Below, one piece after another: positions 12,193-63,754 of a stretch of 64,000 bases of DNA; position 1 is the first letter of the stretch, and every line of letters begins with the position of its first letter. The notes beneath the pieces are model-generated. The model was not told the DNA's origin. It was given only the letters and a program-made list of their open reading frames with translations, and made no database searches. The position numbers and the translations under genes are program-made. The DNA comes from Lingula anatina (taxonomy: Eukaryota > Animalia > Brachiopoda): positions 9,494,954 through 9,558,953 of the forward strand of contig CM120644.1 of assembly GCA_051362555.1 (NCBI GenBank), read 5' to 3'.

Positions 12193-12443
12193 ATTATGCT
12201 CTGAATAATACATGTATGTGATTCGAAGAAATACGTTTTCTTAGCATTTGTTATCCCAATGGCACCCCTAACACATGGTGCTGAGATTTTGAATACCCTA
12301 AATTCAGTGTGCATCAAAGTTGGCTCAGTACTTGCACATTGAATTCGGAGCTCAACCAGAATTATTGGTTAACAATGAAATATATATTGACTTATTTCAG
12401 GGAAGCTTTTGTGCATGTGTTTCCTTTTTTAAAATAAACCTAC

Positions 12444-19419: not shown

Positions 19420-19450
<31 letters not shown>

Positions 19451-20017: not shown

Positions 20018-20057
<40 letters not shown>

Positions 20058-36684: not shown

Positions 36685-37928
36685 GTTATATATATATGTG
36701 TGTGTGTGTGTATGTGTGTGTTCCTGTTATGCAGGTACAGTGTATTTATAAGATGTAGTGCGTAATGCCCGTATTACAAGATGTTATTTGATCTTCAATG
36801 TATAGAGAAATAGCGGTTTCGGTATTTTTACCTTAGCATTTACCTAGATGTCTATAGCCTTGTTTGTAGATAATTTGGATATGGTGTGGTTAAAATCTTG
36901 GTGGTAAACGCAAAAAGTTCAAATTTACAGGAAAACTCAGTACTCTCTATATAAAGACCCCTTTGTGTAAGCAAAACGCTCATGGTAAGCCTTTGAAAGT
37001 TCCTTGATCAGGTTAATAAACATGAGTTCACTTTTTACATTGCAAAAATGATGTAGATGCAAAGTGATAATATTGTAGTTAGTGTAAGTAATTGAATGTT
37101 ACTATGTATGTGTAAATCCAATATATAACAAAACAACGGTAAGAAAGCTTGTTGACAGGCATTTTTGCCCTCCCTAAATCAGTCAATAATCGACCAGTCA
37201 ATAACAATGTTTTTTTAAGAGGAAATGAGAGCTGGATTGCGAGGTGCGATTTGATTGCGTTTGCTGAGATATAGCCGTTTTCGTATCGTGTCAGAATCAC
37301 GCAGTGTACTTTTGATGAAACAGAATACGCAAATTTCGCGTTGAGTGTCAGTAGCGGGCAAAATTATAAACATATCAGTTGTGCGTCAGATACGGGATTT
37401 TTTCATGTCGGCGTAACCTTTTTTCATGCATTTAAAATAGCAAAAGCTAAATGTATTTCCTGGATCATTTTTTTCCAATTTCACTACAGCTCTAACACAA
37501 CATTCGTCGTCATCTGTCGACCTTATGAGCCTTCCATAAATTCAAAATTGTCTAAACCCGTTATTTTATAACAACTGAATACCATATGGCATATTCAAGA
37601 TTTATATCACTAATCAGTCACACAAATCGCTAAATTTTGACAGAAAAGAAACACTTCTAATACCGTTCAGAAAACTAAACAGTAAGAGTCTGAATCCTAT
37701 ATACAGAACATCATGCTCATGTACGAGTATAAAGGCGCTTTGACGACACATTGTTTACCAGTGCATTGTTAAGTCTGAATGCTCGCGCATGTTGACACAC
37801 CAAAACAGCATACGTCACAGCGTGGAAACGTTTATGTGAACAATACACTGAAATCTTAAGTAAACACACATTTGACGCAGGCGATCAGAGACCAAGTGAT
37901 TAGGATAGAAGTCGAAGGGATAAACAAA

Positions 37929-39058
37929 ATGGCGGACCAGGTTAAACTCTGGCTACACTGCGTTATCTTTTTGGTTTTATTACAAATACAGGTGAGATTT
38001 TATCCTGATATTATCCATGATAAGTTCATTTATTTACGGATTTAAACGGAAAGTTGGTATTTAACAGTTTCTGTGGGACTGAGGAGGTTAGGGACGTAGT
38101 CGTTACGGATAAAGGAAAGTAACTTCGATTTTCCATTTTCATCAAATTACAGTTATCGGCTTTGATTGCACTGGTATTTTAAAGTAGCCACCTTCCGAAA
38201 AGTGACCTCTCACTGATATCAGGAAATGGGAATTGATATGGACGAAGTGGGATTAGGTCTTGTAGAAATAATACCGGTGATACATGCTAGTGTTATGTCC
38301 AACAGAGGGTTAGGTGTCTAGAAGTGATATAATATAGTGACTGATTACCCTCTAGAAGATTGATTTTTCATTAAATATTTTAAAATGTGTCCCTGGATAA
38401 TGCATGGCACTTGTCTGCCCTTCGCGTAAGGGAAAAGTGTACATAACTTCAATCCACGGCCCTGGTAAAGAGTAGTGACTGATGCAGATTCGATGTTTGT
38501 GATGATGCCCCAGAAAACACTGTTCTAAGAATGGTGAAAAACCACTGGCATTCAAGATTCTGCTGTCATTGGACTGGCTCATTTTTCAATTTTCATTTGC
38601 ATTTTCCACGACTTCTTTTACCGGTTGTGAAAATTCAAGCAAGTCTCAGAAAATGACCACAATTTCATCCAAACATCTATAGACTAAGAGTGGTAGAGAC
38701 TCTACTACTCTTTCATCTAGACTAATCCATTACTTGTTCCCGTTAGACGAAATAGGCGCCGTGAAGACTTCTATTCTTCATCAGTTTAATAAATAATGAC
38801 GTGGGCGTCATTGTCTTTTCCTAAAACACATATACACAAGAGCGTACGTCCATAGCCTGTTCTATATGTAATGATATTAGACTAGAAGGTGTTAAAGTTT
38901 GTTAATATTCTCTTTAGGGAACTGAAGGATGTTACAGCCTGTACTACAATTGCTGGTATTCTTTGTGGTACTTTTGGTGAGTAGATTTATTTGTTAGTTT
39001 ATTTTTAATGTTTTATTTGTTTACAGAACATATCCAACTGATTAAAACGCACTCATGT

Positions 39059-39102
<44 letters not shown>

Positions 39103-39388
39103 TCACACACACACACACACACACACACAGACGAGCGCCTTTTTTACATCTTTTAACTTGATTATGAAACTGGTGTATTTCAAGAAGGCGCGTCACATTA
39201 CTATGGAGATTCGTTTATAGTTAATCAAACATGTTTCACGTATTTTCAGGGTCTGCATTTTCATAGTGATAGCTGTTGTAATTGGTATCTGTGGTGGAGT
39301 AGCACGTAAGCGCCATTTGGCAAGACAGAGAATTACAGTAACAACTACCCCAGTGGCCCCACAAAGCAACGGTAAATAGCTAAAGGAA

Positions 39389-39431
<43 letters not shown>

Positions 39432-40505
39432 GGTGTGTTTGAGAAAAAGATGAAAAAAGAAGATAAGGTATATTTGTTTTAAATGTTAAATACAAAAACA
39501 AGGAATGGCATATCACACACACATCTTTTGTTAAATACAGTTTATAAATAATTTCTTAAATTTTAGTAATAAACCTTATATTGACATCGAGCTTTGCTGT
39601 TTCAGTCGTGATGAGCGTTACCAACACTCACAATGTACAAAGTCACATGGTACAGCCGCCCCCTTACCAGGCTTACCAGCCCCCACCAGCATACCAACCC
39701 CCCAAGAGCAACTACCCCCCTCCCGGAATGGGAGCCTACCCACCCCCTGGGGGTTGTTACCCTGCTGGAGGAGGAATGGACCCTGCTTACCCACCGCCAG
39801 GTAACACTGTCGCTATCCTTTAGTTCGGAACTCTCACCCTCTGGTATTCTGTAGTAAATTAGTGTAGAAATACTCAACACTAACATTTTGCGAGAGGAAC
39901 TTTGTGTGACGGTTTCTCACCTGTAACAATCGTGATTTGTTTCGGAGTGAAATGTCTTGAATCAGTGCAGCACAGCTGGTGACCCAGGTGAACTAAATCA
40001 GCATTTTAATTACTATGTTATTAAAAACTTAATAAATTGATTTTAATATAGCATAATGGATTTAAATAATTTACTGGGCCACATGTATCTGTTACATCAG
40101 CTAACGTCATTTAATCTACACTTGCGTGAAGTAATTAGATTAATTTACATAGTATAATTGCAGCAGTATTATATAAGAATAATGCTCTAACACAATAGGA
40201 CCTTTTTTCTGTAATCCCCTCAAACATATGTTCAACGTAAAACAGGCTTTTTTGCCTGTCTCTTTTATGAAAAACTCATTGTCTAATACAATATTAAAAA
40301 AAAAAGATGGTTAAATACGTGAGGTATGCCTGCATACATGTATATCTCGTGTAATATACCGAGAATGTTTAAATCAACATCCACATTTTTTCATTGGCTA
40401 ATTAAGTGTCATCTGGGTTCTTTCTGCATTCCAGGCCCACAGTACTCACAACCGTATGCCTCAACGGGGATTGGCCAGCCTTCGTATGGATACGCATTTC
40501 CTTGA
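37929..40505 (+). CDS. VOPP1/WBP1-like single-pass membrane protein with PPxY tail; exons 37929-37991, 38918-38976, 39250-39371, 39606-39800, 40435-40505 (169 aa)
   Basis: Signal peptide, CYSLYYNCWYSLWYFW, TM VCIFIVIAVVIGICGGVA, RKR stop-transfer, PPPY/PPAY tail; splice phases consistent, total 510 nt. Confidence 0.8.
39060..39128. repeat. (CT)n(CA)n compound microsatellite; (GT)n also at 39391-39430
   Basis: Direct reading. Confidence 0.9.
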
Positions 40506-42851
40506 AACTAGAGATTTTTAAAAACTATATCATATCATGTCCACAGACGGGAGCTAGCTTTCAGCGCAGGACAATGTTAGCAAGATCGCCTTCATCTTCC
40601 TCTTTTTCTAACCATATCCCTCTGTAGGGATGGCATGGTATTCTAGAGTAAACGAGAGGCCCTTCTAGTTTTTTAACTAGGTAAAGAGATGCATGGGCAC
40701 ATTCTTTTTTCTCGTCTTTCCCATTAAATAGCGAGAAAGCATTTTCGGATTATATGGCATCCCTTCTGAATACAGGAATGTTTTATTATATTAAGCTTAC
40801 CTTAAGCAACTTTAAGGCAACTTATATTTAGTAAGGATTAAGACAAATATTTGTTTTAACCTTCCGATGCAAACAAACGTAATCCGCGAAACAGAGCCTG
40901 CATTGTAGGGATATTCTTCCAGCTTATATCATTATGTATTTATCTTGAAATATTTCGTAAATGATGTTTTTATCTGTGATATTATTTGGATCGTATATGC
41001 CACATTAGTCGGTGTTTTAGCTTCAATGTTACTTGCAAGTGTAGCGACGTCTGCCATTTTTTCGTGTAAAACTGATATACTATTTTAAAGTATGTGCTCT
41101 CCGTGGGGGGTAACTTTTATATTCAGTATATTTGGAAAAATATAATAATGGCTTCAACTTATTGAATCTCCCAAAAGCAAACTTTGCATGTTTACAGCAG
41201 GTTGTCAGAATTGTTTAACTGTTATCTGGTAATGTAATACGTCAGGTGTAATCCAACGCTTCTATTTTTATTCCAAGCTCGTGTTTTATTCAAATGTATA
41301 CATATAATGTATATATATGAAGGAGTTGTGTGAATTTGCATTTCTAGTAAATTTACCACGAAGAAATGTGTTATAAGAACCATAAGGTATAAACAACTGG
41401 GTAATCTTAAGTTCTTCCAGCTAGCCAGCCACCGTTTTAAGGTAGGCCTAGCCAAAAAACCCTCCTGTTTATATACGACACTTACAGATTTTCTAATAAA
41501 TATGTTATTTTCTCATATCATCGTGCTTATCGCCTGCTGTTGTATATGATCACTTCATCCACGCGGGTTTATTGACATAAAAAACAAAACAAAACAAAAA
41601 AATGACAATAAGGTTGAACAGAGTCAACAGATTATCGAAAATTATGATACAGTAGTTTTTCGCTTCATTGTGCTTGTTGTAATTTTTGTTGTTACTTTGA
41701 CCAAGGAGTTATAACACTCCTTGCTTTGACCATCCTCGTACCGCTTGATGAAAATGATCTTGAAATATCAAACCAAAATCTTTTTATCACGCCTGAGCGC
41801 AGTTCAGTTCATATCATACGTTTGTCTTCGTACGTTTCCCAATTATTCCTTAAATATATATATACAGACTGAAATTTATTGATAACTATAATGAGTTCTG
41901 GTGCGATGTGACCATTGGAATACTATCACGTTTCCAATGATTTGTACATGCAATCCACGTCCTACGTGCAAGCCTATCCTTACGTCACGCTAACCTTCAC
42001 TTATAGAAATCTAATGGAGGGCGGATTTTCTGTTAAAAGGACCCTCATTTTCGTCACACCCGCTCCGCAATTCTGCAATGTTCAGGGACGGGTCAAGCAC
42101 ACAGCCTTATCTTTACGTGTATATAGCGGCATCATAGACTCCTTCCTTGCTTCTTGTTTGTTTTTGGAGAAGGGGAGAAATAACGCTGTTCTATTTATTT
42201 ACGAAAAATAAGGCAAGCTGTAGATACATAGTGTGTGATCCGTCTGTGCTTCAAGAACATTATGGGCTGAATAAAAAGAACGTCCCGTTTTAGCCTTTCA
42301 AAATATAAAATAAAAAGGCGCTGTGAAAAATGATGAGCTTCAAATAGTAGGTCCCGCAATTACCGGTAGCTCAACTTAAATAAGTGGATTTGGACGTTAT
42401 ATTTTCAATCTTTGTTAACTTCATCAGTCAACTTCATCAGTCAAAATCAATATTTTTTTTATTTTTTCAAACCACTCATATTTCACCCCTCACGTACCCG
42501 GGTCAGAATACGGTAAACACGAATCAGCTGATGCTCTTGCTGAGATAAGCGTTCAAGAAAAGTGGGCTCACTGTCAATAAGCTCAGTGAGGCTGAAGGTT
42601 AACGAAGACGAAAGGTAGGCTGTCCATCTCTCGTCCACTCTCATTAGATAACATGCTGAGGGTCATCTATTATAACCAACTCTTAACGCGGTAAACTCGG
42701 GCATTAACTGATACAAGGGGGCGAAATTTGCCCAAGGTTTTCTTGCTATCTTCCCCAACGTTAACATAACGTGTCGCCTGTGATAAGTAGAAGAATAAGG
42801 TCTTAAGCGAAGGTGAGAGCTGATATCAGTGCAACTTTGACGGCAGCGCTA

Positions 42852-42965
42852 AAACCCATTTTGCATAGGACGGCGTCCTTTCTGCGTCCGTTGTGCGACC
42901 ATGATGCTGGCTGTTGTCGTAGAAAGGAGGTACAAGAACTGCTTTAGTTGCAGAATGATGAGGAT
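42852..42965 (+). mobile_element. Partial, decayed copy of the Harbinger-like MITE at 63532
   Basis: Shares GGACGGCGTCCTTTCTGCGTCC...TGCGACCATGA...AAGGAGG with 63547-63616. Confidence 0.6.
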
Positions 42966-43921: not shown

Positions 43922-46900
43922 ATGTCAGAATTTCACGAAGTGGACGAAACGCATGAACGGGCGCCCCTGATCTCCAAAGATTTTGCAGAGACGTCACTCT
44001 CTAATAGAAAAACAACCAGCTATAGCGCCCTGAGTATTGAAAAAGGACACCCGAATGGAGGATTTCACGGCAGTTCCATGGGACACGACAAACAGCCCAA
44101 TGGCTTTATGAACGGGAAAGTCAGTCACGGTGGAGGTGAACACGGGTATATGTTCGGTGGACGGAAAAGAGTCCTATCGACTAGACTCAGTTTCTCCGAG
44201 TCGTTCGATAAAATCAAGCTTACCTGGCACGATATCAATGTGTTTGTCCCGCCGCCTGAGCGGAAGTGGTTTCATTGCCTTAGAAACGGAGACGGGAGAG
44301 CCGAACCTGGGGCCAAGCAGATTCTGAGCAATGGTAAGAAAACATTTTTTCTCTTTATTTCCTTCTTATCTTTGGTTATCTCTAAAACCAAATTGAGAGA
44401 TGAAAGTGGGATATGATGCTTTTTATCCAATTTCCTTGTGTTTTTCTTTTTTTTTAATTTGCTATAACATTATTTATAAAGCGCTAAACTGAAAGTCTTG
44501 ATGTTTCTGCATGTTTCTCTTTTTCCATTTTTTTTCAATATTCAGGGATCTAAAATAGTTAGAACGTTTCAGGATGCTATAAGTTAGGTTACTGTAGTCA
44601 GTAATATACATAGCAATCTCAAATAAGTGGACTTCAGATAAAAATTAACGATATATGATCATTGCACAAGTTCATTTCACTCCAAATTTCAGAGCCACAT
44701 AGACTGGCTTTCATTCAATTCCCTTGTAAATGATTAATTTCATTTGCTCCAAGGGTAAAAAAAATGGGACGCTTAAGTTAAAAGTGTCATTTTTACATGT
44801 CTTTTTTTGGCCAATAACTTAGGTTTCAAAAATATTTGTCAAATAATTTTAGGGTTCTGTGAAGTGGTTGAAGTGGGTTACTGCAACCTTTAACCTACCA
44901 AAGAACACCAAACCAGAAATATGCAGATAAAACGCTATTTGGTCATAAAAATATTTTATATAAACAGTTTACAAATTCCTCATCTTTACACGAACTTGCA
45001 TCATGTGGGCTTTCGAAAAGCGTTTAAAAACAAGGGTCAGGAGCACCAAAGACGGTCACATTCATTGACAGCCTCCCCAGCCAAGTCAATCCCCAATTTT
45101 CACATTGCTACACAAGTAAGCTTATCAATATGCACACTACACTTAGAGTGTTCACTTGATAGAAGTGTTTGTTAACGTTGATAGCGCGTTCAGTCTTACT
45201 TGGGGAGAAAACAGAGATTTAAGATCCGAGATCTCTGGCTCTTAGCCAAGGATAACTTTTTTTTCGTAGACGGCGTACCGGGTATCAGCTCTCACTGTAC
45301 CAAATGTTGCGTTAGATTTAGATCTTTCTCTATACAGCGTCATCAATGTACAATGTATAAATACACATGGTTTAAGGCGAATTAAGTCAACCCTTTTATT
45401 GGGTCAGACATACGTCAGTAAATATGACATGACCAATGCCGACTACTGTCAAATACAGTTCCTTTATATCGTCAGACCACAAACAAAAATATTTTATCAT
45501 ACATTTAGTTCAGTCATATTGGCGGATACCGTAGGGGGTAGTAAATGTACACCCCTTTTACTTCACTAAATCACGTTTATATATGGAACTTAGATTTGTG
45601 CCGTTCTTGTGTGTCATTCTGTAACTTCAGGCTTTTCCCGCTAGTCTTTCTACAAATGAGAATGCCCAAGATGTACAGTTGCTGAAAATACTCCACAGCA
45701 CTTGGCGTTCAAGGTTTCGGGTCTTATAGGGGTTTATCAGTGGGGCCGTTTACCTTTAAAACGCGTCATTTTCCAGCCGTATCATAAGATGAAAGCGACA
45801 ATACGTTATCTACGAGGCGATTGATTTCTTTTCCGCACCTTTGGAGACCTTTAGATATACAAGTGTAAATATAACTACTATTTATAAATGACAGGTGCGT
45901 AAGAAGGGTGATACAGCTATCAAGAAAGTGCCTCATCATAGTTATGTGCACAAATATAGGGTCAGAAACTGGACCAGGTTTTCCCTCTGTGTGTGACGAA
46001 ATGACTTGCAACCCTAGACGGTTTCACTTAGTCAAAGATTGGGCAAAACACTTATATTTTCTCATGGCCAGAAATGCGCAGCATTCACGCGATACGCGAG
46101 GGCGCTACAGTAGGGCTTCACGTGACTCAACTAGCCAATCACAGCACAACAATGGCATCGCACACAGACTATGTGATAAGTGCTCAGCCCATTGTCAAGT
46201 AGTGTTAGTTCATGGTAACAAGCGTCTGACATGTGCAGAGAAGTTTATTGTAATATATATTGTTATTATTGTTACATTATTAAATCTAACTCTGTATCCA
46301 AGTAGTAACTATCCTGTACCAAGTCAGGTACTGATGATGTGCAGAGGTCGTGTATTCAATAATAAGCCATTACCACTAATTTATAACTTTAATTTTGTTT
46401 AATATGTTATTCTTGAAAGAGTTCATGAAATATTATTTTAATTTGTTAAATCGTGATCTTATTCTTTTTATATTCAAATAATTGAATAATGTGGGTAAAA
46501 TTGGTCTTCCACTTCTTATTTGCATTTTTCCTTTACTACAAGATTTTTTTTTTTTTTGGAACAGTTGCAGCATTAAAATTTAAAATAAATAGCAATTTGA
46601 AAAATAAAGCATTTTGCATTATTATTAAATGATGATAGGAATTTTGGATTAAGAGATTAGTTAAATACTGAGGAGTGATATTGTCAGTCAATTTATGAAT
46701 CTGATAATATGATTGAAAATACTGTTTGAATTCTTGGCCTTGCACTGTGCATTTTCACATTTGTGCCAAGTGATTTTTCGGACTCCATTGTACAGTGGTA
46801 AAAGTTCTTCAATTGCTATGAAATTTTTTTATCAGAGTCTGTATGGTGCTGCTATCTGCTGGTGCTATCGGCAACAAATTAGTTTGCCTTTGTTTCTGAG

Positions 46901-49900
46901 TGAATCAACGTCTAAAATCACTATTTCTGAAAATATTTACGTTTTGCTGAGGGTGGGCTAGGCAATGCACAGCACACTTTTTAGTACGTGTGTACAACAG
47001 AATTTTTTAAAAAACCCTAGCGATATTTGGTCAGGAGTTGCTTGAAGCATAGCACAGAGTTGCTGTCTATCGGCATCAGGCCGTTAGTTTGTCAATTATC
47101 GTGAATTACCCACGAATCGCGAACCCATTCATTTCCTATGGCAATCCAGCAACTCATTAAAAGTGCACGCATGCGCAGTGGGCTAAGCATGATGTCATGC
47201 AGCGCATTTCTGGGGATGACAAAATGGAGACCTTAAATTGCCCTTTAAAATGTGTATTATTGCATTCTTCATGCCACCTATCAAGGACCTCCAACAACTA
47301 GTTGTAGGTACTACTACTACTATTATTTGTTTGGTATTTTAAGAAATAATTTTAAAAACGAAATGTAGACAACTAAAATCAGTGTTCTAGAGCAAAGATA
47401 TTAAAAGAGGACCCTGACACGACAAACACATGACATTTTAGAGAATCAGACGATTTATCAATAATGTATGTTGGTCAAAATGTAATGAAGACAGCCTTTT
47501 TACTCCATAAAATTTCTTTTTTCGCCCTTACAGTAAGCGGTTACGTGGAACCTGGAACACTTCTAGCTATACTGGGGGCAAGGTGAGACATTTCACGATA
47601 TTTCCCAATCAGAAGTTTCATGTCATCTTCATAACAGTGGTAGTTCCTGAAGTTTACTAGAAGTAGACAGAATATAATATAATGCGTTAAGATATTGACC
47701 GTTTGAAGTAACTGGAGAATGAAGTAAAATAAAATATCTGTCTCGAACCCTCTGTCTCGATCCAGAATCCAAAATATAAGAAGATAAAAGGTAGTCACAT
47801 ATCTTAAAAAGTCAATCCCAAAGTTAGACACAGATTTATAAATCGCCACCTTACTTGATTGTTTTTGTACCAACAGCGGTGCTGGCAAAACTACCCTCCT
47901 GAACGTGCTCAATTCTCGCAACCGTGGTAACTTGATTGTTGATGGCGACATACGTGTCAATGACAAGTTGATAGGCAAAGGGATCACCAGTGTGTCTGCG
48001 TACGTCCAACAGGATGACGTATTCGTAGGGGCGCTCAAGGTGAAGGAACACCTGTGGTTTCAGGTTTGTATTCTTGCTCTCTTTAAGTCCTCTTTCCTTT
48101 TCTGTGATCTGGTCTCTTTTCTTTCTTTTCTATATTGTTTTCTTTTATTTTTTCATTCTATTTTTCTGTTTTCTAAAGTATTGTTTTCTTTTCCCCCTAT
48201 CTTTCCGTCTCTCTCTCTCTCTCTCTCTCTCTCTCCTTTCGGTACGGGTTCAGATTTATTACAGTTGATCAAGCATAGGACCGGCAGCCAACTGATAACA
48301 CTGAGACTTACACTGTTCTCCATAGGCAATGCTCCGCATGGATCCAGAGATATCTTTTAAAGACAGGGAGAGAAGAATGAAAGAAGTGATGCATGAGGTG
48401 AGACAACAGTATTAGCACAATCGGCGCAGTCACACCTATCACAGTTTAAACTGTAAAAAAATGTTAAAGGCATACCTTTCTACCCGGAGTTTGATGCCTA
48501 GTGTGAAGCCAGTCAACTTTTCTTTATCCTTATGCACTGTAGATAATGAAGGGCAGATCAAAACATTTTTAGTTCTAATGTTCAATTTGTCCGTTGTTCA
48601 TTTCTTCATCACTCTTTTTTTTCTTCCAGATGAGTCTGACCAAGTGTCAGGACACCAGTATAGGTATACCAGGGAGGGTGAAAGGCATTTCTGGAGGCGA
48701 GATGAAGAGGCTGTCATTTGCCGCTGAGGTCAGTGAGATGTTATTTTTTCCTTTTAAAAAACTCTCTCGGGGGGCGATCGTCTTGTATATAAATCGTGAT
48801 ATTCAGAACTGAAAGATCTACACATGCAATGTATACAACGGGTGTATTTTTTACCAGCAAGCAGACCTATGCATTGTAGAATCTTTCTCCTTCTTAATCT
48901 ATTAACATTTGGTGAACGAAGTGAGTTTCCAAAAACTTTTGAAATCAGAGTAACCAAGTGCCCTATATAGCCATTTGCTCTAATTGCAGTTGCTGACCAA
49001 CCCCCCTTTGATGTTTTGCGACGAGCCGACCTCGGGGCTGGACAGCTACATGGCCCAAAATGTGGTGGACACACTGAAGAGAATGGCAGCTACAGGGAAA
49101 ACTGTCGTCTGCACCATCCACCAGCCGTCGTCCGAAGTGTTTGCCATGTTTGATAGGTGATGCTTCTTTGACTTGATCAGGCAGAAAACATCAAATAATG
49201 TTTAAAAAAACGGCACCACTGCCATGCGTTCCTTTGAGACACAAAAACCAACATTTTAATCGTAATTGATTACTATGACGTTTTCCCTTTTAACAAAAAA
49301 ACGTAGTATTCAATGGTTAGATATGAAATGAACTTAAATGTTTATGTACATTATTGAAGAATATTGCTGATGGCCGAGGGCAGAGTGGCATACATGGGCC
49401 CAGCAAAGGACACATTAGAATACTTCAAGAGGCGAGTAACAGTTTTGATATCAGTCAGAGTGTTGTTAAAATTCATTTTTACGTGTACTACACGTACAAT
49501 GTAGGCAGGATGTCATTTTCTTCCAAATCATACGATGCACGGTACAATATTTCTCAAGATTGAAAAGTGATTATTCTAATAGTCAGATGTGAAGTATTTT
49601 ATTTTTAACCATTTAACGGAAAAGACTGGCGTTAGTATTTGGACACACGTAATGTTTTTATTCATTAACCTTTCCTTATTCATTTCTTATGCAAAAAAGA
49701 ATTCACATTACAAACATTGTCAAAATACAAACAGGCAAGACTAGCTGACAGTACATGAATTGACTTGCTGTAACGCTTGTGTAATCTCTATGTTTTAATT
49801 ATATTTTAACTCCGTGTGTAGCGGTGGCTTCACCTGTCCCGTAAACTATAACCCGGCTGACTTCTTCATCCACACCCTGGCTATTGTACCGGGAGAGGAG

Positions 49901-52900
49901 GCGGAGTGTCAGGATATCGTCAGGGTTGGTTTTTAAAATTTTCTTATTGATTTTATTCTCTCTTGTTTGAACCTTCAACATTGTGCTGTAGAATGGCATC
50001 GCATAAAGTTACCAGAAAAGTGACAATCTGATGGAATTGGTTTTGATTGGACGGTCCATAAACTTGCATTCATTTCCAATGGCAGTATCAAAGCTGAACA
50101 GCAAAGCAGAATAAAGCAGAAAGTAAATTTGACTACCTTTCAATACCGTTGGTCCTCCAGTGAAAGCTACCTGATAAACGACCGAAATGTATTCAATTTA
50201 AATCTGTCTGTCCCATCACATAGTGCCTTACTTCTCATTTCTAAGGTTAAAATACCTTTGTTGGATATTATGTGCCATATTTTACCTATTTCTCTGTCTA
50301 TTTCTCACACTTTACTCACCTTTTTGTGTCTGTTGTTTCTTTCAGCGAGTTTGTCATCAGTACCAGAACTCGGATTACCGTGACGCCGTCTTGAAGAAGG
50401 TGGCCAAAAATTATTCTGATCACACCCAGGTAAGTTTAACGTCCAAAATGTATTTTACAAAGGGTCTTAACTAATTTCAAAACTGGTTAATATGAGGAAG
50501 AGCACATCCGTTATCTTAAAATAAATCTTTTATAGATGCTTATAACTTAAATTATATGCGAAAATGAATTCAATTTATATTAACTTAAATGCGGAACGGT
50601 ACCCCAGACACATCATTTCCATTTCAAATAAAATATATTCTCTTGTAAATTATTTTTCAGTATGAAGAGGCATTTGCAGACAGATCACCGTAAGAAATAT
50701 TTACATATTGCTTACTTTCCACAAGATTGCTTTATCTTTTTTGTATTAAATACAACCACTAGCTAAAGCTTACATTATCAAGTGGTCTGAAGATCGAAAT
50801 ATATTATACTCCGTGTAACTTGGCTCTTTGAGCCCGGATTTCGAGTTACAGGTAGGCAATGTTAATATTAATTTCAGCGTATAAAATGAATAAGCTTGTA
50901 CCTTAAAAATTGTTCAAGATAAACGATACTCTGAATCAATATAAGGTGTTACCATCATTCCACTGTTACCAGATACAAGGCCACGTGGCTTGAACAGTTT
51001 CGCGCTGTCACCTGGCGGTGTGGTCTGTCTAACATACGAAACCCAGGAATTACCAGAACGAGGCTGTTCCAGACATTGGTAAGTTTTAGCAATCACTAGT
51101 CTAGATTATAATTGATATAATATCTGATATGTTCACATTCCGCTAAGCTGTTTTTTTCTTAAAGAGTGATTTAAATTTAATTAATTAAGTTTGATTAATT
51201 AACATTGATTAAAACAATAAACTATTAACGGACAACAATGTAACTGTGCAACGTCTGTTGTTCAACTAGTAGTTGTAAAACGTGTTTTGAGTCCATTGGT
51301 CCTTAAAGTAAGTGGAAATATACCAGTAAATTATGGTGGCTGACGCCTGTCTATACTAAGTGTAGACATAATTTGTCTTATAATTTGCTGCAGGATACAG
51401 TTTTATTTTTTATAGTCATAGCAAGACTATACATGTTTATTAAAAATTGGCTTGTGACAAGGGAAAAAACAATTCTGTTTGATGCTTAGAAATGTCTCTT
51501 CAGTTCATTTCACTTCTTGTGGGCGCCATCTATTGGCAGCAGCCGAACACGTCTACTGCGGTACAGAATATTAACGGTGCCCTCTTTATTTGGATAACTA
51601 ACATGACAGCTGCTAATTGCTTTAATGTTGTGAACGTAAGTTTTTTATGGTTAATTGGCGTCACACTCCAATTTTCAAGAAAGGACATCCCATGTATCCG
51701 TACTTACTGACTAATGTGATGAAGCTAATGGAAAACCTTTCTGAAAACAAGGGTATGACGTCATTTAAATTTTGAAAAACAGTCTCCAAAAATTTACTTC
51801 ATGTTTTATACCATCATTTCAGTTTATCGCCGTGGTTGTCGGTTTGATTTATTGGCAGCAGCCAAACAGCCAAGCAGCCGTTCAGAACATCAATGGAGCC
51901 ATGTTTCTGTGGCTGACCAATATGACGTTTGCCAACTGCCTCAATGTTGTCAACGTAAGCGTCATTTGGAGCTTCACTGATGTTTACACATAAAACTAAT
52001 TTACACAGCCAGCGTTCTATCTGATATAAAATAAATATATAAATATATTACGTTCATTTGATTCCCCAAGAAGACCAAAACAATGTGGCCAACCGAAACT
52101 TTTTAACAAATGTCATTCATTTTTTTCTGAGTGGCTCAAATGTTGACAATTTTTTGCATTCCCGTCCGTTTTGGATGCAATGATGTCACCAGTACTTAAG
52201 AATGGGCAATTTTACATTTATTCGATGTTAGAATTTAAAAACGGTATTTCATGATGATACTTGTGAAAAAGGGTAAAAGCTAAACCGTTCTGAAATGGGT
52301 TCCGGTCAGCCACAGAAACCGAACACTTTTCCTTTTAACAACATTTTGGCAATACTTCAAAACTTTATGAATGTTTTACAAAGTTCTCTTGTTATATGTA
52401 CACAATATTTTATTTCTCGTTTTACTAATTTGATTAAGCCTATATATTATTTGAATTTACTTATATTACACCGACTGGTCGTGTGCAACGTACATTACCT
52501 GCATGTGAGATCTGCCCTTATTATGTCTGTTATATGATATGATATATATGATAGTGTCGATACCGAGTGTACTTGCACTTCCAGACGTTCCCATTAGAAA
52601 TGCCTGTATTCCGCAGAGAACACCACAACGGCATGTACAGAGCCGATGTTTACTTCCTGGGCAAAATGGCTGCTGAGGTAGAATTTCTATTAAAAATGCT
52701 AACCACAAGAACGACGGCACTGAAATTTTGTGATGTATTTTGTGATGAATTTGATTGATTGGTTGTGGATGTTAGCGTTATTTTAATTGATATACAGTAC
52801 TTCACTGATGAAAGTGTTCATTAGCAGTCAATGGTTGTGTAGGCAATCATTGCAGCAAGTTTGTTAATTTTTTTCTTGTTATCATCATTATTATTATTAT

Positions 52901-55129
52901 TATTATTTTTTTTTTTTTTGGGGTGGGGGGGATACAAAATATGGTAAGATGTTACTATGGCGTGTAACATATACAGGTACAGACGTTTTCCAACTCGGTA
53001 ATATAATCATTTATGACATTTTTCACAAAATATACTATTTAAAAGTAGAAACCACTGGTAACTGGTTACAATGTACCATCTGGCAAGTGTTAAAGTGTGG
53101 TTAGACATCTTCACATTACAAATGTAAAATTTTCCGATAATGTTGAGTGGAATTCAATTTCAGCTTCCCATATTCCTGTTCCTGCCAGTGATATTCGTGA
53201 CTATCAGCTATTGGATGATAGGTAGGCCACGTTACTTTCTCTCATGGTGGAGTTTGTGAAAATACTTTAATGGTAGAAGTGCCATTTTTTGAAAAAATTG
53301 CAATCAGTATATTTTTACCGAAATGTTTTTGAAGTGGTTGCATTTATCAAAGTCGCTTTCTCTGTCTGGATATGAAATTTTATTTTCTTCACAGGTCTGT
53401 ACCCGACGGCCGATGCCTTCTTCTACTCCATGGCAGTTGTGACACTAGTAACTCTGGTCGCCGTTTCTTGGGGTAAACAAGACTTCACATTGTTAAAAAA
53501 AACTTCCGAAATGTTTTAAAAAAATAAATAGTATTCCCATTATATTAATTCTGTTATCCTTTATATGTACGACTTTGAATGTATGCTAGTACGTGTAATT
53601 GTGTTTTTTGACAATTTTCTTCACAATTAATCTTCACAATAAAACATCTTTACTCCAGGTTACATTGTATCATGCGTCACAGACGACATTGTCATCAGTA
53701 CAGCTATAGCGCCACCTTCAATAATGCCGTTACTGCTGTTTGGTGGGTTCTTCTTGAACAACGCGTGAGTAAAAATTGGCTTCATTTTCAATAATGTTTG
53801 CTGCCTCAGCCCCCCCTTCTCTCACCCCACCCCCGCAATAAATGGCAGAGCCATTAAGAATTAAGACTGGACACATGCTCCGTCTTCTCAAATGGCCAAC
53901 ATCTCCTGACCAAGGCCATTCAAGTATTTTACCCTCATGTGCTATGATCGTCCTATATAAGCTGCTTCCATATCCCATGCAGATCCATCCGTTGGGCAAT
54001 ATCCTCTTGCTTGTGAGATACAGGACAATGTTGCTATTTTCATTTGGTTATTTTTGCTCATTATTATTTCGTAACCTAATTATTTTACACACTGACATTA
54101 CCAAAGAACTTACAGCTAAATATCTATATGCAATAATGTGATTTCAAGAGACGTAGATGACCAATGAAAACTTGGCCTGAAATGGGTTTTGTAAATCAAA
54201 GAACATTTCCAAAATATTGTGTCTTGTGATATTATTATTATTATTGTTATTGTTATTGGACAGAAATTGGTACTCACATATTTCAAATGTGTTGCAAGCC
54301 ATGTTATATAATCGCACTCTATTTTAGGTCTATTCCTCCGTACTTTACATGGCTGAGTTCCATATCGTGGTTTACATACGCCAATGAGCTTTTGGTTACT
54401 AACCAATGGGCGAATTATGGGAACATTAGTAAGATATATCTTTATTTGTCGTAATATTTTATTTGGCAATTTTTTGCTGTATTCTGTGAACACGAATCAC
54501 GTAGAATTCGGTTGCTTAGCAATCTGTCGTTGTTTAGGTGGTATAAATGATAAAAAATGTCGAAAAAGTAAATCGGTTTGGTAAACTCTCAAAACGAAGT
54601 AAAGGGCTTACGTTTGTAGGGGGAAAGGTGAAAGAATAGTTTAAAAGTTAAAATTTTAGATGCTGTCCATTAAAAGTCTACTATCCGGCACTTGTTTTAT
54701 CTCCGCCTGTCTCTTTCTATCGCTCTCTCTCTCCCTCTCTTACTGTGATGCCACATTACAATTCCAGCTTGCGCAGGAGCGGACAGTACACGATGTTACC
54801 AAGACGGACATGACGTCATAAGCAGCCTTGCCTTCACAGTGGTAATGTTCTGTTGATTTTTCAATATGTTGTATTAATAATACATGGTGCAATGTGTAAA
54901 ATGTTAAAACAATTGTGTAACAGACAAAATATAAACGAAAAATGAATATATTTTTGTGATATCTAAATCTGTGAAATTGTTGTTGGTCGTGTGTTGATAA
55001 AACAGCTTGATATTTTTTTTTCTTTTTCAGTCGGATGAAACGCTCAACTGGGTCGTTCTTGGTGCTATGATCCTCATCTTCAGAATATTTGCTTTCATTT
55101 GCTTTCTACTGCGATCGTACAAAAAGTAG
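43922..55129 (+). CDS. white: White-type ABCG half transporter, 706 aa; exons 43922-44333, 47534-47582, 47877-48063, 48326-48397, 48630-48728, 48990-49156, 49360-49431, 49822-49924, 50346-50429, 50661-50689, 50973-51078, (51504-51635 or 51823-51954), 52585-52677, 53164-53221, 53395-53472, 53659-53764, 54328-54428, 54768-54841, 55031-55129
   Basis: Walker [31 protein letters not shown], Walker [33 protein letters not shown]2 membrane domain. The exons join to a 2121-nt open frame. Confidence 0.92.
51504..51635 (+). CDS. white: white exon 12a (TM1-TM2): [44 protein letters not shown]
   Basis: CAG| acceptor and |GTAAG donor, 132 nt, phase 0-0, open. Confidence 0.88.
51823..51954 (+). CDS. white: white exon 12b (TM1-TM2): [44 protein letters not shown]
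   Basis: CAG| acceptor and |GTAAG donor, 132 nt, phase 0-0, open; paralogous to 12a. Confidence 0.88.
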
Positions 55130-56228: not shown

Positions 56229-58637
56229 TTAAGGCTTTGCGAACAGAAACCGTGGTTCAATTTTTGACAAACATGACTCGTGTTTTTTAACCTCTCGTGA
56301 GCAATTTTCATCTGGCACTGATCCAATGTCAATGCGACGATACCCTCTTCTCATTTCAACCGTTTGTGCAACCGTGCTTGTGGATTCGGGATCTGATTCC
56401 TGGAATGAAAATTTACATTTGGTATCACATGTTGGCATGATGTGGCCTAGTTGATTAAGACATACTGATCAAAATTAAGAAAATGACAAGAGATATTTAC
56501 TGCAACTAAAACAATTCCTCTCTCGTTCTTTCTTTCGTTCATTCTAAACCATTATTGTAAAATAACTGGAAAAATATCTCCAGTAGGCGTATAAGATTAA
56601 AAACATATGAATTACCACTGGACGTCTAACATAGATATGTTCCCCTACGTACAAAATGTCACCCCCACCACGTTTACGCGTACTGCTACAAGGGCACCCA
56701 TAGTTTTAACTTAAAATAAAAACTAGGAAACCGATCGTCGTGTACATTTGCGATGCGAGTAGTATGACATTGACCTACCCAGCATAAGCATTATATACTT
56801 CAACGCAAGTTTTTTGATTTTGAGGCTCCTAAGTGAGAGGGATACATTTTGTACCAAAGGGTTGACATAGATAAGAGTTTTGACCCGCCGAATAGCCAAA
56901 AGGTTGGGTTGTTCCATGAGAATCAGTGGAGGGTTAGACATCATGACCAAATAGGAACATAGGCAAGATTGCCTGGTAAGGCCGACCAAAGGAAACAACA
57001 CCCAGAGAAGAGAGATTGCCAATACGCCTCCCTCGTAGAAAGCATTTCGTGATATTTAAAAGCTTGAGTAAACTTTTACAAAAACAAACCATTTTCTGAG
57101 TTTACCGTCAGAAGACGTTTGCACAGTTGTCGATTTGGCAGGGTTTCTGTTAGGAGACCAGCGATCACTGCCAGGAACCGTGTACGTCAAATCAGATGGT
57201 ATACCAGAACTCTGGCATAGACACCAGGCAATGACTGGGCATTGACAGTGTTCACAGACAAGAAGTGGTTAAAGGTTATCAGGATTATGGACGCTTACGG
57301 ATTTGGAGAACAGTTGGTAAGAAGTATCTTTCAAAAGTTCTGCCTCTGGTCGACAGGACGCACCCCACATACGTCTTGTACATTGGATGTATTGGCTACC
57401 ATGGTGAAGGCGAGCTCTCAGTGGTCACGAGAACCTTAATAAAGACCCATGCCACCAAATACTGGAAAGGAAACTAAAGAAATTATGTCGATAATATATT
57501 TGGTGGCCATGATCACCCATTTATGCATCAGTTTGATAACGCTACTCCGCGTAAAACCCAACGCAACAATAGGCTTTTTATATGCCAGCCAGACCCTGAC
57601 CCCGATAGCTCAATCCCTATATCAGAAAACTTTTCTCGGAAATGGATAACTGAGGCATAATTCTGCAAACAAAAATGTCCTCATACTATCTTTGCACCGT
57701 GTGTGAAAAGCCCTCATTGCACAAAAGTTACAGAGCTTTTTAACCAAACGCACAGACGAGTCAGATGGGTCCTCCAATCCTGAGGACACTGTTCAAAATA
57801 CCAAAATGTGACATTGAATTTTACTATTGTAAGCTTCTTCGTTGGTATTACAATCAGTACATTTTTGCGAAAGAAATCCTTTTAGAAGTTAGATAAAAAA
57901 AAATTGGCTCATGACATCATTTTCTGTATAATGTATTTTACGCCCTGCGTTAGGGGTGACAATTTCTTGCTAGGGGAGTATAGAATTCGCTTTACACATT
58001 TACTTATTCAATTAACCTATTGATTTACTATATGGTAATAAGTTTGGCTTGGTGTGACACGTTTCAAATACCTTTCCTTTAAAATCAAAAAAGTTCATAT
58101 AAGCATTTCGAAGTCAAACATACATGTATTTTAACTGAAATACCACAATCGGTTTTAAATATGAAAATGCTAGACCAAAAAGAAAAATTCAGAAAGATAT
58201 TACCGAAAAACAGAGTTTTGAAAAATTTACATCTTTTATACTCACACTGTTTAGACAGCAACAAAGTAGAGCTACACAAGGCAACAGTGTAACGAACACA
58301 ACAACAGTGTAGAAAAAGCCAACGGGCAGCGGAGTAATTGGACAGTTGTGGGCGTGGTCGCAGTACATGTAGAAGTAACCCTTCTCTGGGAGGCGATACC
58401 CACGTTGTTGTTGTTGTTGTTGGCCGTGTCTGGTTTGTTTAAAATGGAATTTGGCGCAGATCTTGTAGCAGCAGGAGCGGACTCAGTAGCGTTGTCGCTG
58501 TTATGTCTCTGGGAGACCGATCCATTTCCGATAGAGGGCGCCGAGGTATTCGTGTTATTGGTAAAAGAGGAAGTGGCATGGGGTGTTAAAATTATCAGTA
58601 TGGCGGTAATACTGCACAAAACCCCGCATGTATCCAT
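56229..58637 (-). pseudogene. Mucin-like type I membrane protein paralog 1, frameshifted just before the TM; probable last exon 56399-56229
   Basis: Signal peptide MDTCGVLCSITAILII and S/T/N-rich stalk. The TM GFFYTVVVFVTLLPCVALLCCC is in another frame and ends at a GTGAGT donor. Acceptor TTCCAG precedes ESDPEST...FAKP*. Confidence 0.55.
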
Positions 58638-60891
58638 TGGCTGAGATTGATCTGAAAAACGAAGACAAAATGCCCACATGGAAGGATCGACGGGGTGAGA
58701 AAATTTACGAAGATTGCCTTTTGCGTATCAAATGGATAATTTGGTTTTAATTACAGACTTGACATTTAAAATGTGATATTTCAGTTTCAAGGGTACGCCT
58801 GGGTAAATGCGTTTATTTAACTCCCATCTAATATTAGATATATGAATGCACAAGTGTGTAGTCAGGTGCGTAGCTACCAATTAATTGACTACCATTTCTG
58901 TTGCACTGCTGCATTGTTTGAATAGCAGGTTTGAATATCTGACGATCTCTGATATGAGGAACCCACTGTAAACAGCAAAACATCGTCGTCTTTTTTTTCT
59001 AATGAATTTGGGACCGTGATCGTTTCTGGGTACAACAATAAAACTGCGTGGTTTCCTTTATTACTGAGGTCAGATTTCACTTCTACCGCTCAAGTTGTCA
59101 AAATACAACATTAGTCAAAAAGGTTGTCCCACCCCCATTTCAAAGTACTTTTATTTACAAATGATCACCTCACAGCTGTGAACTGTTAGAAATAGTGCTT
59201 TTCATTACGGATACCGTGTCTAACATGGTTAATGGTTAAAAAAATACAAAATAGTGGTGAAAATATACACATTTTATACCATTTAGTAAAATTTATAAGA
59301 GGTACCCCCTCAAATCGACTGTTTCACTGTGACAACTACAGATGTAAAGAAATGTCTATAAAATTGAAAAGACGCCATCAAATGTCACCAAATTCACACA
59401 CAATTAATTTGGTCACTGAGTGACCGAAAGCTCTGTAATGTACAGTTTCAAGTGAGTGTAGTAGATTTTATAAAACAATTAAGACCTGGTGACCAGAAGG
59501 ATTTACTGTATCATTCACATTTTGGCAGGTGTTGTATATTTGAATATGTTTGTAAATTGTCAATATGAAAATCACCAAACATCGGAAGTTCATTAATGAT
59601 GAGTTAGAAATTAAACCTCCCCTATCTATGATGAAAAAATTGCAACTTTGAGGCCTGTCTTTCCAAAATTAAGGCGAAATTATCAACCACACAGCCATAG
59701 ATTAGTAAACATTTTTACAGTGTATACACAGCAGCAAACCCAATCAAATAAAATAATCAATACGTTAACTCCTTCTGTGAAGGAGTACGTGAAAGATATG
59801 GGTCACGTAGTGGTTTAGTGTTTATTCTTGTTTGCTACTTTGTATGTCTCATTTATGAAATAAGCAACATTTGTTCTCTTGGAAGTTAAATTTACTATTC
59901 ATCTAGATTATACAACTATACCTTACACATGGAAATTATTATAATATAAATACTTAATTTCACAAAACATTATTCTAACAGCAGTGGGCGTGTACCAGTG
60001 CTACAAGTACAGTACCTCTCGATTTTACATCAAATGAATGGCGTCGAATATTCACCTCGAATACGTAGGCCCTACTTGGTAACTGCCTAACAAACTTGAC
60101 TTACCCTGTTGACTTATTATTATGTGCAGGATAATTAAGATCACCACAAGCGTACTCCAGTGTATGCAGAAAGACTGAACTACATGTACATGAATGCCAA
60201 CGCTATCAAAAAACAATGATAAGAAATAGACAAGTTAACACATAAATAAATAAATGAGGCTCATGCAGGCTCACATGAGAAAAATTCATCGTGTGGAGAA
60301 CTAGTCGGTGCTTATACAATCATATAAGCAAGCATAACTGAGATATCGGGGCAAGTGTTAATTTCTTCTCATAACTTTCTTTTTAACAAATCAATCTGTA
60401 ACGCTAACTGGTCTGTTATACTACGAGATGGGAGAAGAGGATGATTTCCATGTTAGGCACGTATTTTTTTGTACATCTACATGATGCATTATAGTGGGGT
60501 AAAGTAAATATTAAGTATAGTGGGATTGAACAGTTTTGTCTGGGTCATTGATAAGCAATAAAAATAGATCAGCTGTAGGTTTAGGTCTCTTGAAAGTCTG
60601 TCATTTGGGGACAATTGAAGTGGGTCTTCATTGCAGGCTCAAAAAAGCTATATCAAGCTATATAATCAAGCAAAAAGGCCACAATCGACCCTAAGATCCA
60701 TCAGAGAAAAATTCAAAAATTATATTCCCGTCCTACAACGCAATTTTCGCTGCATCCTAAATTTTAACGAATTTCTCGATTTAAATCGGATAAAAATATC
60801 ACCATGTTAATAACTTGATTATAAGGAAATGAAATATACAAAAATAATAATAATTCCAGTATTTAGCAGTCCGAACACGAAACACGGTTCC

Positions 60892-62301: not shown

Positions 62302-62718
62302 TTAAAATTTACATCTTTTACTTACTCTGTTACATAAGCAACACAGTAGGCCTACAGTAACCAACACTGCAACGAACACAGCAACAGAGCAGGTAAAGCC
62401 ATTCATCGCAGTACATATACCTTTGGTACCGGCAGTTGTGGGCATGGTCGCGGTAGAAGTAACCGTTCTCTGGGAGGCGATACCCATGTTGTTGTTGTTG
62501 TTGGCCATGTCCGGCTTGTTTATGCTGGAAATTGGCGCAGATCTTGAAGCAGTTGGGGCGGGCTCAGTGGCGTTGCCGCTGCTAGGTCTCTGGGAGACCG
62601 ATCCATTTCCAGTAGAGAACACTGAGATACTCGTGTAATTGGTATAAGAGGAAGGGACGTGAGGTGTTAAAACTATCAGTATGGCGGAAACAGTGCACAA
62701 AACAACGCATGTATCCAT
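62302..62718 (-). CDS. Mucin-like (S/T-rich, N-glycosylated) type I membrane protein paralog 2, main exon
   Basis: Acceptor TTTCAG upstream, signal peptide, NYT/NGS/NAT sequons, TM VAVFVAVLVTVGLL, CCLC, then AGA|GTAAGT probable donor. Paralogous to 58272-58637 including flanks. Confidence 0.65.
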   Translation of the reverse strand: MDTCVVLCTVSAILIVLTPHVPSSYTNYTSISVFSTGNGSVSQRPSSGNATEPAPTASRSAPISSINKPDMANNNNNMGIASQRTVTSTATMPTTAGTKGICTAMNGFTCSVAVFVAVLVTVGLLCCLCNRVSKRCKF

Positions 62719-63531
62719 TGGCTGAGAGCGATCTGAAAGATTAAAACAAAATGCACACATGTGTGAGGAAATTTACCACGGTTGCCTTTTGCAAAACTAA
62801 TGGGCATGATTTTGGTTTTAATTAGTTTCAGGAGGGTGGTTTTGATAAATTTCATCATACTGTATAAACCTGCTATTGTAGGACAGAATGCCATCAAAGA
62901 TAATAGTTAAGTTAGCCATTGATATACAAATTAAAATGTACACATAACGGGAATTAGACTGTTATTTGGGTTAAATATTAAAAGTATAAAATTGCGTCAT
63001 GTCGATATTACAGGTAGATTGCTGATACACGGTAGTTGTACTACCGATGATGACCTACATTATGTCTTACCTACATTAGGTCTAATTCAAGGTTAAGAGT
63101 TTGATCTGAATGCGTGGACTATCGTCTGGACCAGTGGCGGATTTAGAGGGGTCAATTTCACCTTCGATTTCTGGTCCTCTCTTGAAATTAAAATGTTCAC
63201 TAGCTGAATCATAGTTACCATCATTCTCTGAAACTCGACTGTGCGATTTAAACAAACACTTATTTCCCAAAACGAATGAGGTCACCTGATTTAGTGTCCT
63301 TGCTGATGTTGTACGTATCATGTGCTACACATTTCTGTTCACCTTGACGTTAAGATTATTTTTTATCTGGTTTGTCAGGATAATATGACTATACCTTACA
63401 CATGAAGGTTTGATTCTTCCAGCCTGATATCAAAATGGACGCGTACCACTCGGTTTCACATCAAATGAAGTGCGTCGGTTGAAAACTCATGATGACAGAT
63501 TCACCCCGAATAACTTCCTAGCCGCTGCTTA

Positions 63532-63754
63532 TACCCCCTTTACACTGGACGGCGTCCTTTCTGCGTCCTCTCTGCGACCATGAAATTTGGCAACGCTGTG
63601 GTCTTAATAAGGAGGCACGAGCATGGATTTTGTATCAGAATGAATGCTCAATGAACAGCAAGTTGTCGGCACGTAAAGTATTATAATTTTTTAACTCTCA
63701 AATGGGGCCGGACTGCTGGACGCAGAGAGGACGCCGTCCAGTGTAAAGGGGGCT
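63532..63754. mobile_element. PIF/Harbinger-like MITE
   Basis: ~35-bp TIR CCCCCTTTACACTGGACGGCGTCCT(T/C)TCTGCGTCC at both ends; TTA on both sides (63529-63531, 63755-63757). Confidence 0.85.

What the first reader, a model, noticed from the sequence alone, without database searches (positions are those of the whole stretch)
51504..51954. Duplicated, probably mutually exclusive exons in white swap the residue matching the ABCG2 F439 substrate clamp (Ala vs Phe)
Seen: two 132-nt phase 0-0 exons, 187 bp apart, both open with canonical splice sites, encoding the same TM1-loop-TM2 segment with many synonymous differences, so both appear to be maintained by selection. Known: in human ABCG2, TM2 residues T435, N436 and F439 (GVLFFLTTNQCF) line substrate cavity 1, and F439 is the aromatic clamp. 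My by-eye alignment gives [12 protein letters not shown] (12a, Ala) and [12 protein letters not shown] (12b, Phe). Inference: splicing switches the substrate pocket, and since ABCGs dimerise, one gene could make a/a, a/b and b/b transporters, an intragenic analogue of white pairing with scarlet or brown. I know of no description of this but could not search the literature.
Basis: partly seen in the sequence, partly recalled or inferred. Interest (0 to 1): 0.8.

Follow-up and report, generated by a model that had tools for sequence, protein, structure and literature searches.

The report
Swappable pocket exons in brachiopod transporter
A brachiopod membrane-pump gene carries two old, intact copies of the exon that builds its cargo pocket, one with and one without the phenylalanine that grips cargo in the human relative, so the animal likely splices in one or the other to make pumps predicted to handle cargo differently.

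Summary
The window encodes a Lingula anatina white-type ABCG half-transporter with two tandem 132-nt phase 0-0 copies of exon 12 (outer TM1, loop, all of TM2). Synonymous sites are saturated and 32 of 44 residues are kept (dN/dS about 0.1-0.2), so both copies have been under selection. The Ala/Phe site aligns without gaps to ABCG2 F439 and ABCG1 F455; two further differences fall at F432 and V442/S443. Mutually exclusive splicing is untested: eight RNA runs gave no reads on the exons, and both full-length RefSeq models use 12b. New here: a perfect 16-bp complement between exon 12b and the downstream intron, which could mask 12b (not favoured in long folds), and an independent tandem pair of the same exon in an unnamed organism (P0161) whose first copy also lacks the clamp Phe. 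F439A abolishes ABCG2 transport, so 12a may be a weak or regulatory subunit rather than a new-substrate one. Precedents exist (coq-2 6a/6e, MRP1); none was found for ABCG in my searches. Verdict: a real, probably alternative exon pair; new member of a known kind.

The parts
43922..55129 (+). white-type ABCG half-transporter gene; exons 43922-44333, 47534-47582, 47877-48063, 48326-48397, 48630-48728, 48990-49156, 49360-49431 (GC donor), 49822-49924, 50346-50429, 50661-50689, 50973-51078, 12a or 12b, 52585-52677, 53164-53221, 53395-53472, 53659-53764, 54328-54428, 54768-54841, 55031-55129
   Evidence: 706-aa open frame; 1 and 2 differences from RefSeq P0001, P0003; ABC_tran 135-288, ABC2_membrane 432-642; top fold match ABCG2
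51504..51635 (+). Exon 12a, the more derived copy; Ala at the F439 site, Ile at F432, Phe at V442/S443; adds an N-T-S sequon in the short outer loop
   Evidence: in none of the 3 members of the RefSeq cluster
51609..51611 (+). Ala codon at the ABCG2 F439 / ABCG1 F455 position (protein 496)
51636..51822 (+). 187-nt intron between the copies; ordinary branch-point candidates 15-27 nt from the acceptor, nearest other AG at -42, so no sign of steric exclusion
51823..51954 (+). Exon 12b, ancestral-like copy used by both full-length RefSeq models; Phe at the F439 site, Leu at F432 and at V442/S443
51928..51930 (+). Phe codon at the ABCG2 F439 position
51903..51918 (+). Arm E: 16 nt inside exon 12b, perfectly complementary to arm D; the matching 12a stretch is only 10 of 16 identical
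52304..52319 (+). Arm D: intronic element between 12b and exon 13, candidate masking or docking site for 12b (function inferred)
   Evidence: -31.9 kcal/mol against -11.1 to -18.0 for 35 other exon-flank pairs; 0 of 8000 shuffles; against:
51922..51965 (+). Predicted local hairpin pairing 51922-51932 (holds the Phe codon) with the 12b donor 51955-51965
   Evidence: probability about 0.98 in four folds; z -2.7, 2 of 200 shuffles; same stretch of 12a z 0.17

Best explanation
An old tandem duplication gave this white-type ABCG gene two intact, selected copies of its pocket exon, which are likely spliced one at a time and would yield subunits with or without the aromatic cargo clamp. 12b (Phe) is the ancestral-like, probably default form; 12a (Ala, plus changes at F432 and V442/S443) is the faster-evolving, probably minor form, predicted to leave a wider, less aromatic cavity and so to alter what the dimer carries or how well. 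Inclusion of 12a is inferred to be allowed when 12b is masked by pairing of its body with a downstream intronic element and of its donor with its own coding sequence. Shown: duplication, intactness, selection, residue register, the complementarity. Inferred: splicing, exclusivity, masking, transport effect.
For: dN 0.15-0.24 against dS 1.1-1.7, NG86 saturated, 25 of 29 synonymous and 18 of 103 nonsynonymous sites differ, Fisher p 2e-12. A copy dead since duplication kept frame, splice sites and 32/44 identity in 0 of 20000 runs at each distance of 0.8 or more, 186 of 20000 at 0.5. Neutral drift from 12b by 6-12 residues kept 12a's profile score in at most 51 of 20000 runs. Splice-site scores of both copies are in the upper half of the gene's own sites. 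Intron flanks share no BLAST similarity beyond the donor. Position 36 is Phe in 106 of 119 homologues but in only 7 of 16 in the clade with molluscan and Lingula paralogues, one with Ala, against 99 of 103 outside, so duplicates vary this site. P0161/P0236 read through an independent tandem pair of the same exon, first copy Lys, second Phe. F432, F439 and V442 line the ABCG2 cavity. The exon is an old symmetrical module: 26 of 36 metagenome loci show AG and GT at the same ends. E-D helix statistics.
Against: No transcript or protein with 12a was seen: 2 of 2 full-length RefSeq models use 12b, a 12a search found none of 2 candidates, and the best exon-like hit among 76 representatives was 60% identical. 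12a has the longer branch (0.283 against 0.05 on a 44-column tree) and has lost Gln477 (16 of 16 in its clade) as well as Phe496. Both-in and neither-in forms stay in frame. E-D had probability 0 in two long folds and 0.37 in a 620-nt fold; no second competing selector stands above chance; 10 of 474 window tiles have as long a complement, all in repeats; BLAST E is 0.09 against the whole window. 0 of 36 metagenome loci and 0 of 10 clusters showed a second copy or an exon-12 isoform swap. F439A is transport-dead for Hoechst in ABCG2. The one search test starts from 12b, not the true ancestor, which favours rejection.
Confidence: 0.55

Rival explanations
1. Both exons are spliced exclusively, but the 12a subunit is transport-poor and acts as a brake or an asymmetric partner in the dimer rather than as a pump for other cargo.
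For: ABCG2 F439A could not transport Hoechst (passages); ABCG1 F455A inhibits ATPase, ABCG5 Y432A lowers cholesterol efflux, and F439Y/W keep function (passages). The two F439 side chains sandwich cargo on the two-fold axis.
Against: Apparently whole molluscan and other paralogues carry Ala, Val, Ile, Met or Leu at the site, so an aromatic is not universal; the rest of TM2 in 12a scores as well as 12b (78.1 against 79.6); 12a keeps the family Phe one turn below.
Confidence: 0.18
2. 12a was once used but is now silent or nearly so, a young pseudo-exon or an exon in evolutionary storage.
For: No 12a product in any collection searched; longer branch; loss of two conserved residues; 9 intact-looking features cannot exclude very recent loss.
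Against: Frame, length, both splice sites and profile score are intact after saturation of synonymous sites; differences are conservative (mean BLOSUM 0.58, matched in 0.5-4% of neutral runs).
Confidence: 0.15
3. Both copies are routinely included, giving a 750-residue protein with an extra helical hairpin.
For: In frame and stop-free; the 187-nt intron has normal splice signals and no distant branch point with an AG-free zone.
Against: RefSeq models are 706 aa with 12b alone; no homologue among 119 has an adjacent double of this segment (the two double hits are about 510 residues apart); the exon starts mid-TM1, so a repeat would be expected to disturb the pocket (inference).
Confidence: 0.08
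4. Assembly artefact: two alleles or paralogues merged in tandem.
For: The Lingula assembly holds near-identical copies of this gene and the window has an 8.2-kb duplicate at 99.8%.
Against: The copies differ at 43 of 132 nt while the gene copies differ at 1-2 of 706 residues; only this exon is doubled; 12a and 12b are sisters (support 0.985) apart from the other Lingula paralogue.
Confidence: 0.02

Closest known systems
coq-2 exons 6a/6e (Tan et al. 2020, PMC7434440; passages read)
   Same: Homologous mutually exclusive exons in a membrane protein swap helices at the substrate site, including a Phe204-to-Leu change; present in molluscs and annelids.
   Different: There the splicing and the switch from ubiquinone to rhodoquinone are shown and shared across phyla; it is an enzyme. 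Here a transporter, seen in one genome, splicing unshown.
MRP1/mrp-1 (ABCC) mutually exclusive exons (passages in PMC6071210 and PMC7434440; Yue et al. 2017 not held)
   Same: ABC transporter, equal-length exclusive exons, arisen independently in several lineages, controlled by RNA pairing with a downstream docking site.
   Different: Full-length ABCC transporter; that its variable exons encode membrane helices is recalled, not checked. Described selectors are intronic and conserved; here one arm lies inside the exon and no competing selector was found.
Homologous MXE switching in general (Lam et al. 2021, PMC7954323; abstract and passages)
   Same: Variable residues cluster near functional sites; enriched in membrane proteins.
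   Different: No hit for 'ABC' or 'MRP' in its main text; supplements not read.
Human ABCG2 / ABCG1 / ABCG5-G8 aromatic clamp (PMC10439158, PMC8289821, PMC11957596, bioRxiv 2022.05.18.492512; passages)
   Same: Same fold (TM-score 0.87 by target, 31% identity) and same TM2 register; Drosophila White is reported to share the motif.
   Different: The clamp is fixed per gene; asymmetry comes from two genes (G5/G8), not from splicing.
Insect White with Scarlet or Brown (recalled; one search found nothing relevant)
   Same: Family name and about 45-55% identity; partner choice sets the cargo.
   Different: Separate genes; insect White nearly always keeps the Phe. No pigment role is shown for the Lingula gene.

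Membership tests
ABCG half-transporter | One nucleotide-binding domain before one ABC2 membrane domain | tested here: met
   PF00005 135-288, PF01061 432-642
ABCG half-transporter | Intact Walker A, Q-loop, signature, Walker B, H-loop | tested here: met
   Seen in the translation, (motif names recalled)
ABCG half-transporter | ABCG fold | tested here: met
   pLDDT 86, top 10 matches all ABCG2
ABCG half-transporter | Works as a dimer; partner identity | not tested
   No complex job sent: a pass would follow from likeness to ABCG2 and would not tell self-pairing from pairing with P0126
white subfamily (versus scarlet/brown) | Orthology to insect white | tested here: inconclusive
   RefSeq name white; groups weakly (0.58) with molluscan and Lingula white-like proteins (117 of 120 rows); scarlet and brown were not sampled as outgroups
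Homologous mutually exclusive exons | Adjacent homologous exons of equal length and phase with valid splice sites | tested here: met
Homologous mutually exclusive exons | Both copies under coding selection | tested here: met
Homologous mutually exclusive exons | Each exon found in transcripts, never both | tested here: inconclusive
   no reads on the exons in 8 of 8 runs laid; only 12b in protein records
Homologous mutually exclusive exons | Pair conserved in related genomes | not testable with these tools
   No genome held; no brachiopod locus among 36; P0161 is an independent pair
Docking-site/selector control (Dscam, 14-3-3, MRP1 type) | Two or more intronic selectors competing for one docking site | tested here: not met
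   one outlier helix, with an exonic arm; all other helices at chance level (-19 kcal/mol or weaker)
Docking-site/selector control (Dscam, 14-3-3, MRP1 type) | Conservation and compensatory change of the pairing | not testable with these tools
   No orthologous intron available
Steric (distant branch point) exclusion | Branch point close to the upstream donor with an AG-free stretch to the acceptor | tested here: not met
   AGs at -100, -73, -42; candidates at 71-79 nt from the donor have AGs downstream
Frame/NMD-enforced exclusion | Double inclusion shifts the frame | tested here: not met

The most novel reading that the evidence does not exclude
The symmetrical TM1-TM2 exon of white is a recurrent switch: unrelated animals have duplicated it independently and removed the clamp Phe from the upstream copy, so one gene builds symmetric and asymmetric cargo clamps across the dimer axis (Phe/Phe, Phe/Ala, Ala/Ala), doing by splicing what white, scarlet and brown do with three genes; in Lingula the choice is set by the clamp-coding RNA itself pairing with the intron and the donor.
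Probability: 0.2. Interest if true: 0.8.

Novelty: new member of a known kind. Interest (0 to 1): 0.5.

Why it matters
ABCG specificity is usually traced to gene duplicates and partner choice. A natural Phe/Ala swap at the one residue shown to clamp cargo in ABCG2, in an otherwise identical protein, is a ready-made experiment on how ABCG pockets set specificity and whether a half-clamped dimer works. The second, independent pair suggests the solution recurs and can be searched for across animal genomes. The principle itself (pocket-switching exclusive exons) is known from coq-2 and MRP1.

Tried and rejected
RNA: no RNA holder listed. Laying 8 of the 9 same-label runs gave no test: 0 reads in X1, X4, X5, X7 at 90% likeness on 48550-54600; in X2, X3, X8, X9 at 80% the bin holding both exons had zero depth, although X8 and X9 showed the neighbouring gene spliced (8 and 9 junction reads), so the organism or a close relative is present and white is not detected there; 6-30% of each run was read. 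No whole genome. Protein search with 12a: nothing. Earlier findings: nothing in 4 look-ups. Steric, NMD and classical competing-selector mechanisms were tested and not met. Weaker helices (upstream intron with D, upstream with middle intron, exon ends with 52335-52353) are at chance level and were dropped. The idea that 12a's Phe500 replaces the clamp is left open: it aligns to V442 (gapped) or S443 (ungapped), and S443 contacts R482. P0160, P0162, P0222 are false hits and P0224 a whole-domain duplicate. Two papers were not held. No complex prediction was run. Literature searches for a prior description (listings only) found none; the library lacks most subscription papers and no supplements were read.

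Full report
Observation. I built the whole gene by hand: 19 exons from 43922 to 55129, 706 residues with either copy; including both (750 aa) or neither (662 aa) also stays in frame. The 12b form differs at 1 and 2 residues from two RefSeq proteins named white from Lingula anatina, both of which use 12b; the third member of their cluster is a fragment ending before this exon. Pfam and a confident model (pLDDT 86) make it an ABCG half-transporter whose closest solved fold is ABCG2. The exon covers residues 461-504: the outer half of TM1, the loop and all of TM2.

Both copies have been selected. About 25 of 29 synonymous sites differ against 18 of 103 nonsynonymous sites (Fisher p 2e-12); dN is 0.15-0.24 and dS 1.1-1.7 by two methods, saturated by a third, and a fourth failed. 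A simulated copy dead since duplication never kept frame, splice sites and this identity at distances of 0.8 or more (0 of 20000 each; 186 of 20000 at 0.5, which gives half the observed third-position change). Drift from 12b by 6-12 residues kept 12a's family-profile score in at most 51 of 20000 runs; that test starts from 12b rather than the ancestor and so leans towards rejection. Flanking introns no longer align. On a 44-column tree 12a and 12b are sisters (0.985), with branches of 0.283 and 0.05: the duplication is lineage-specific and 12a is the derived copy. Very recent loss of 12a cannot be excluded.

The register is right. Each exon aligns to ABCG2 405-438/441 without gaps, and a 133-residue stretch confirms residue 496 = ABCG2 F439 = ABCG1 F455. 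Two more of the 12 differences fall at F432 (Ile/Leu) and at V442 or S443 (Phe/Leu; one-residue gap ambiguity). F432, F439 and V442 are listed within 6 A of mitoxantrone (PMC11957596, passages); S443 contacts R482 (PMC8289821, passages). The site is Phe in 106 of 119 homologues; it is Phe in 99 of 103 outside, but 7 of 16 inside, the weakly supported clade with molluscan and Lingula paralogues, where one whole protein has Ala (rows are not independent). In human ABCGs the Ala change is damaging: F439A did not transport Hoechst (PMC10439158, passages), ABCG1 F455A inhibited ATPase and aromatic substitutes kept function (bioRxiv 2022.05.18.492512, passages). So 12a could carry different cargo or be a weak, regulatory subunit.

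Splicing is untested. Eight runs gave no reads on these exons, although two of them showed the neighbouring gene spliced. No 12a protein was found. The RefSeq model matches mine down to a 29-nt exon and a GC donor, which suggests transcript support for 12b (inference).

What could enforce a choice. Not frame and not a distant branch point. One sequence feature stands out: 51903-51918 inside 12b is perfectly complementary to 52304-52319 in the next intron. Its duplex is -31.9 kcal/mol against -11.1 to -18.0 for the other 35 exon-flank pairs of the gene; 3 of 1500 shuffles of the exon 11-13 interval and 0 of 8000 intron shuffles reach 16 nt. In real DNA 10 of 474 tiles do, all in repeat clusters; D has no close copy elsewhere in the window and its bin drew no RNA reads, unlike known repeats. 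Next to it a hairpin pairs the Phe-coding stretch with 12b's own donor (z -2.7; 12a z 0.17), though its opening cost is only third of 19 donors. Against: the long helix had probability 0 in 1.5-kb and 0.9-kb folds and 0.37 in a 620-nt fold, no competing selector exceeds chance, and conservation cannot be checked. I read it as a candidate mask that lets 12a in, not as a docking-site system.

Elsewhere. The exon is an old module: 26 of 36 metagenome white loci have AG and GT at the same ends, and 0 of 36 show a second copy within the DNA held (counted by eye; several loci are transcripts or cut short). Ten clusters showed no same-species isoform swap in this segment. But among 73 exon-bearing representatives, one (P0161, with cluster mate P0236; unnamed Logan contigs) reads through two tandem copies separated by 20 codons that look like a 60-nt intron; copy 1 has Lys at the F439 site, copy 2 has Phe and a Glu at N436. 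The copies are 18 of 44 identical to each other and 18-19 of 44 to 12a and 12b, so the duplication is independent. I could not see its DNA; the intron is read from the translation, and in P0236 a residue next to the Lys differs, so copy 1 there may be decaying.

Known kinds. Exclusive homologous exons that reshape a substrate site are shown for coq-2 (PMC7434440, passages), are general (PMC7954323, passages), and occur in the ABC transporter MRP1 with RNA-pairing control (PMC6071210, passages; one search found no mention in PMC4691838). Seven searches (listings only) showed no description for white or ABCG; the library is incomplete and supplements were not read. The a/a, a/b, b/b idea needs self-pairing, which is untested; insect White's need for Scarlet or Brown is recalled, and Lingula has another white-like gene.

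Verdict. Real feature; likely a mutually exclusive pair with a predicted pocket change (0.55); new member of a known kind; interest 0.5, or 0.8 if the recurrent clamp switch proves true (0.2).

Noticed in passing
P0161 / P0236 (unnamed Logan proteins): Independent tandem pair of white exon 12 with a 60-nt intron-like spacer; Lys versus Phe at the F439 site, Asn versus Glu at N436. The short spacer could force steric exclusion.
   Followed up: partly
window 3261-11444 and 12197-20377: 8.2-kb tandem duplicate at 99.8% identity holding cytochrome P450 first and last exons; recent duplication or assembly artefact.
   Followed up: no
window 835-3877, 12397-14042, 34593-36726 (-): Cluster of related cytochrome P450 genes and pieces upstream of white.
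   Followed up: partly
window 27740-29237 and 11437-12194: 1.5-kb foldback element (arms 90% alike); one 758-nt arm has a 100% identical copy between the two 8.2-kb duplicates.
   Followed up: no
window 20781-22928 and 23751-27332 (+): Two long intact ORFs of a LINE-type element; the second has endonuclease and reverse transcriptase domains.
   Followed up: partly
window 37930-41700 (+): Small gene with a signal-like start, a membrane stretch and a Pro/Tyr-rich tail; last intron spliced in runs X8 and X9 but with no reads in X2 and X3; no Pfam hit for the tail exon.
   Followed up: partly
window 58272-58727 and 62302-62772 (-): Two related single-exon-like ORFs of about 150 aa, Ser/Thr/Asn-rich with hydrophobic ends, 73% alike; no Pfam hit for the first.
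   Followed up: no
window 63534-63752: Short element with 25-35-nt terminal inverted repeats; a related piece at 42848-42958 draws many RNA reads.
   Followed up: no
window 51546-51554: Exon 12a adds an N-T-S glycosylation sequon in the outer loop, absent from 12b; the loop is only about 7 residues, so use is doubtful.
   Followed up: no
window 49432-49433: Intron 7 begins with GC, and exon 10 is a 29-nt micro-exon; both agree with the RefSeq protein.
   Followed up: yes
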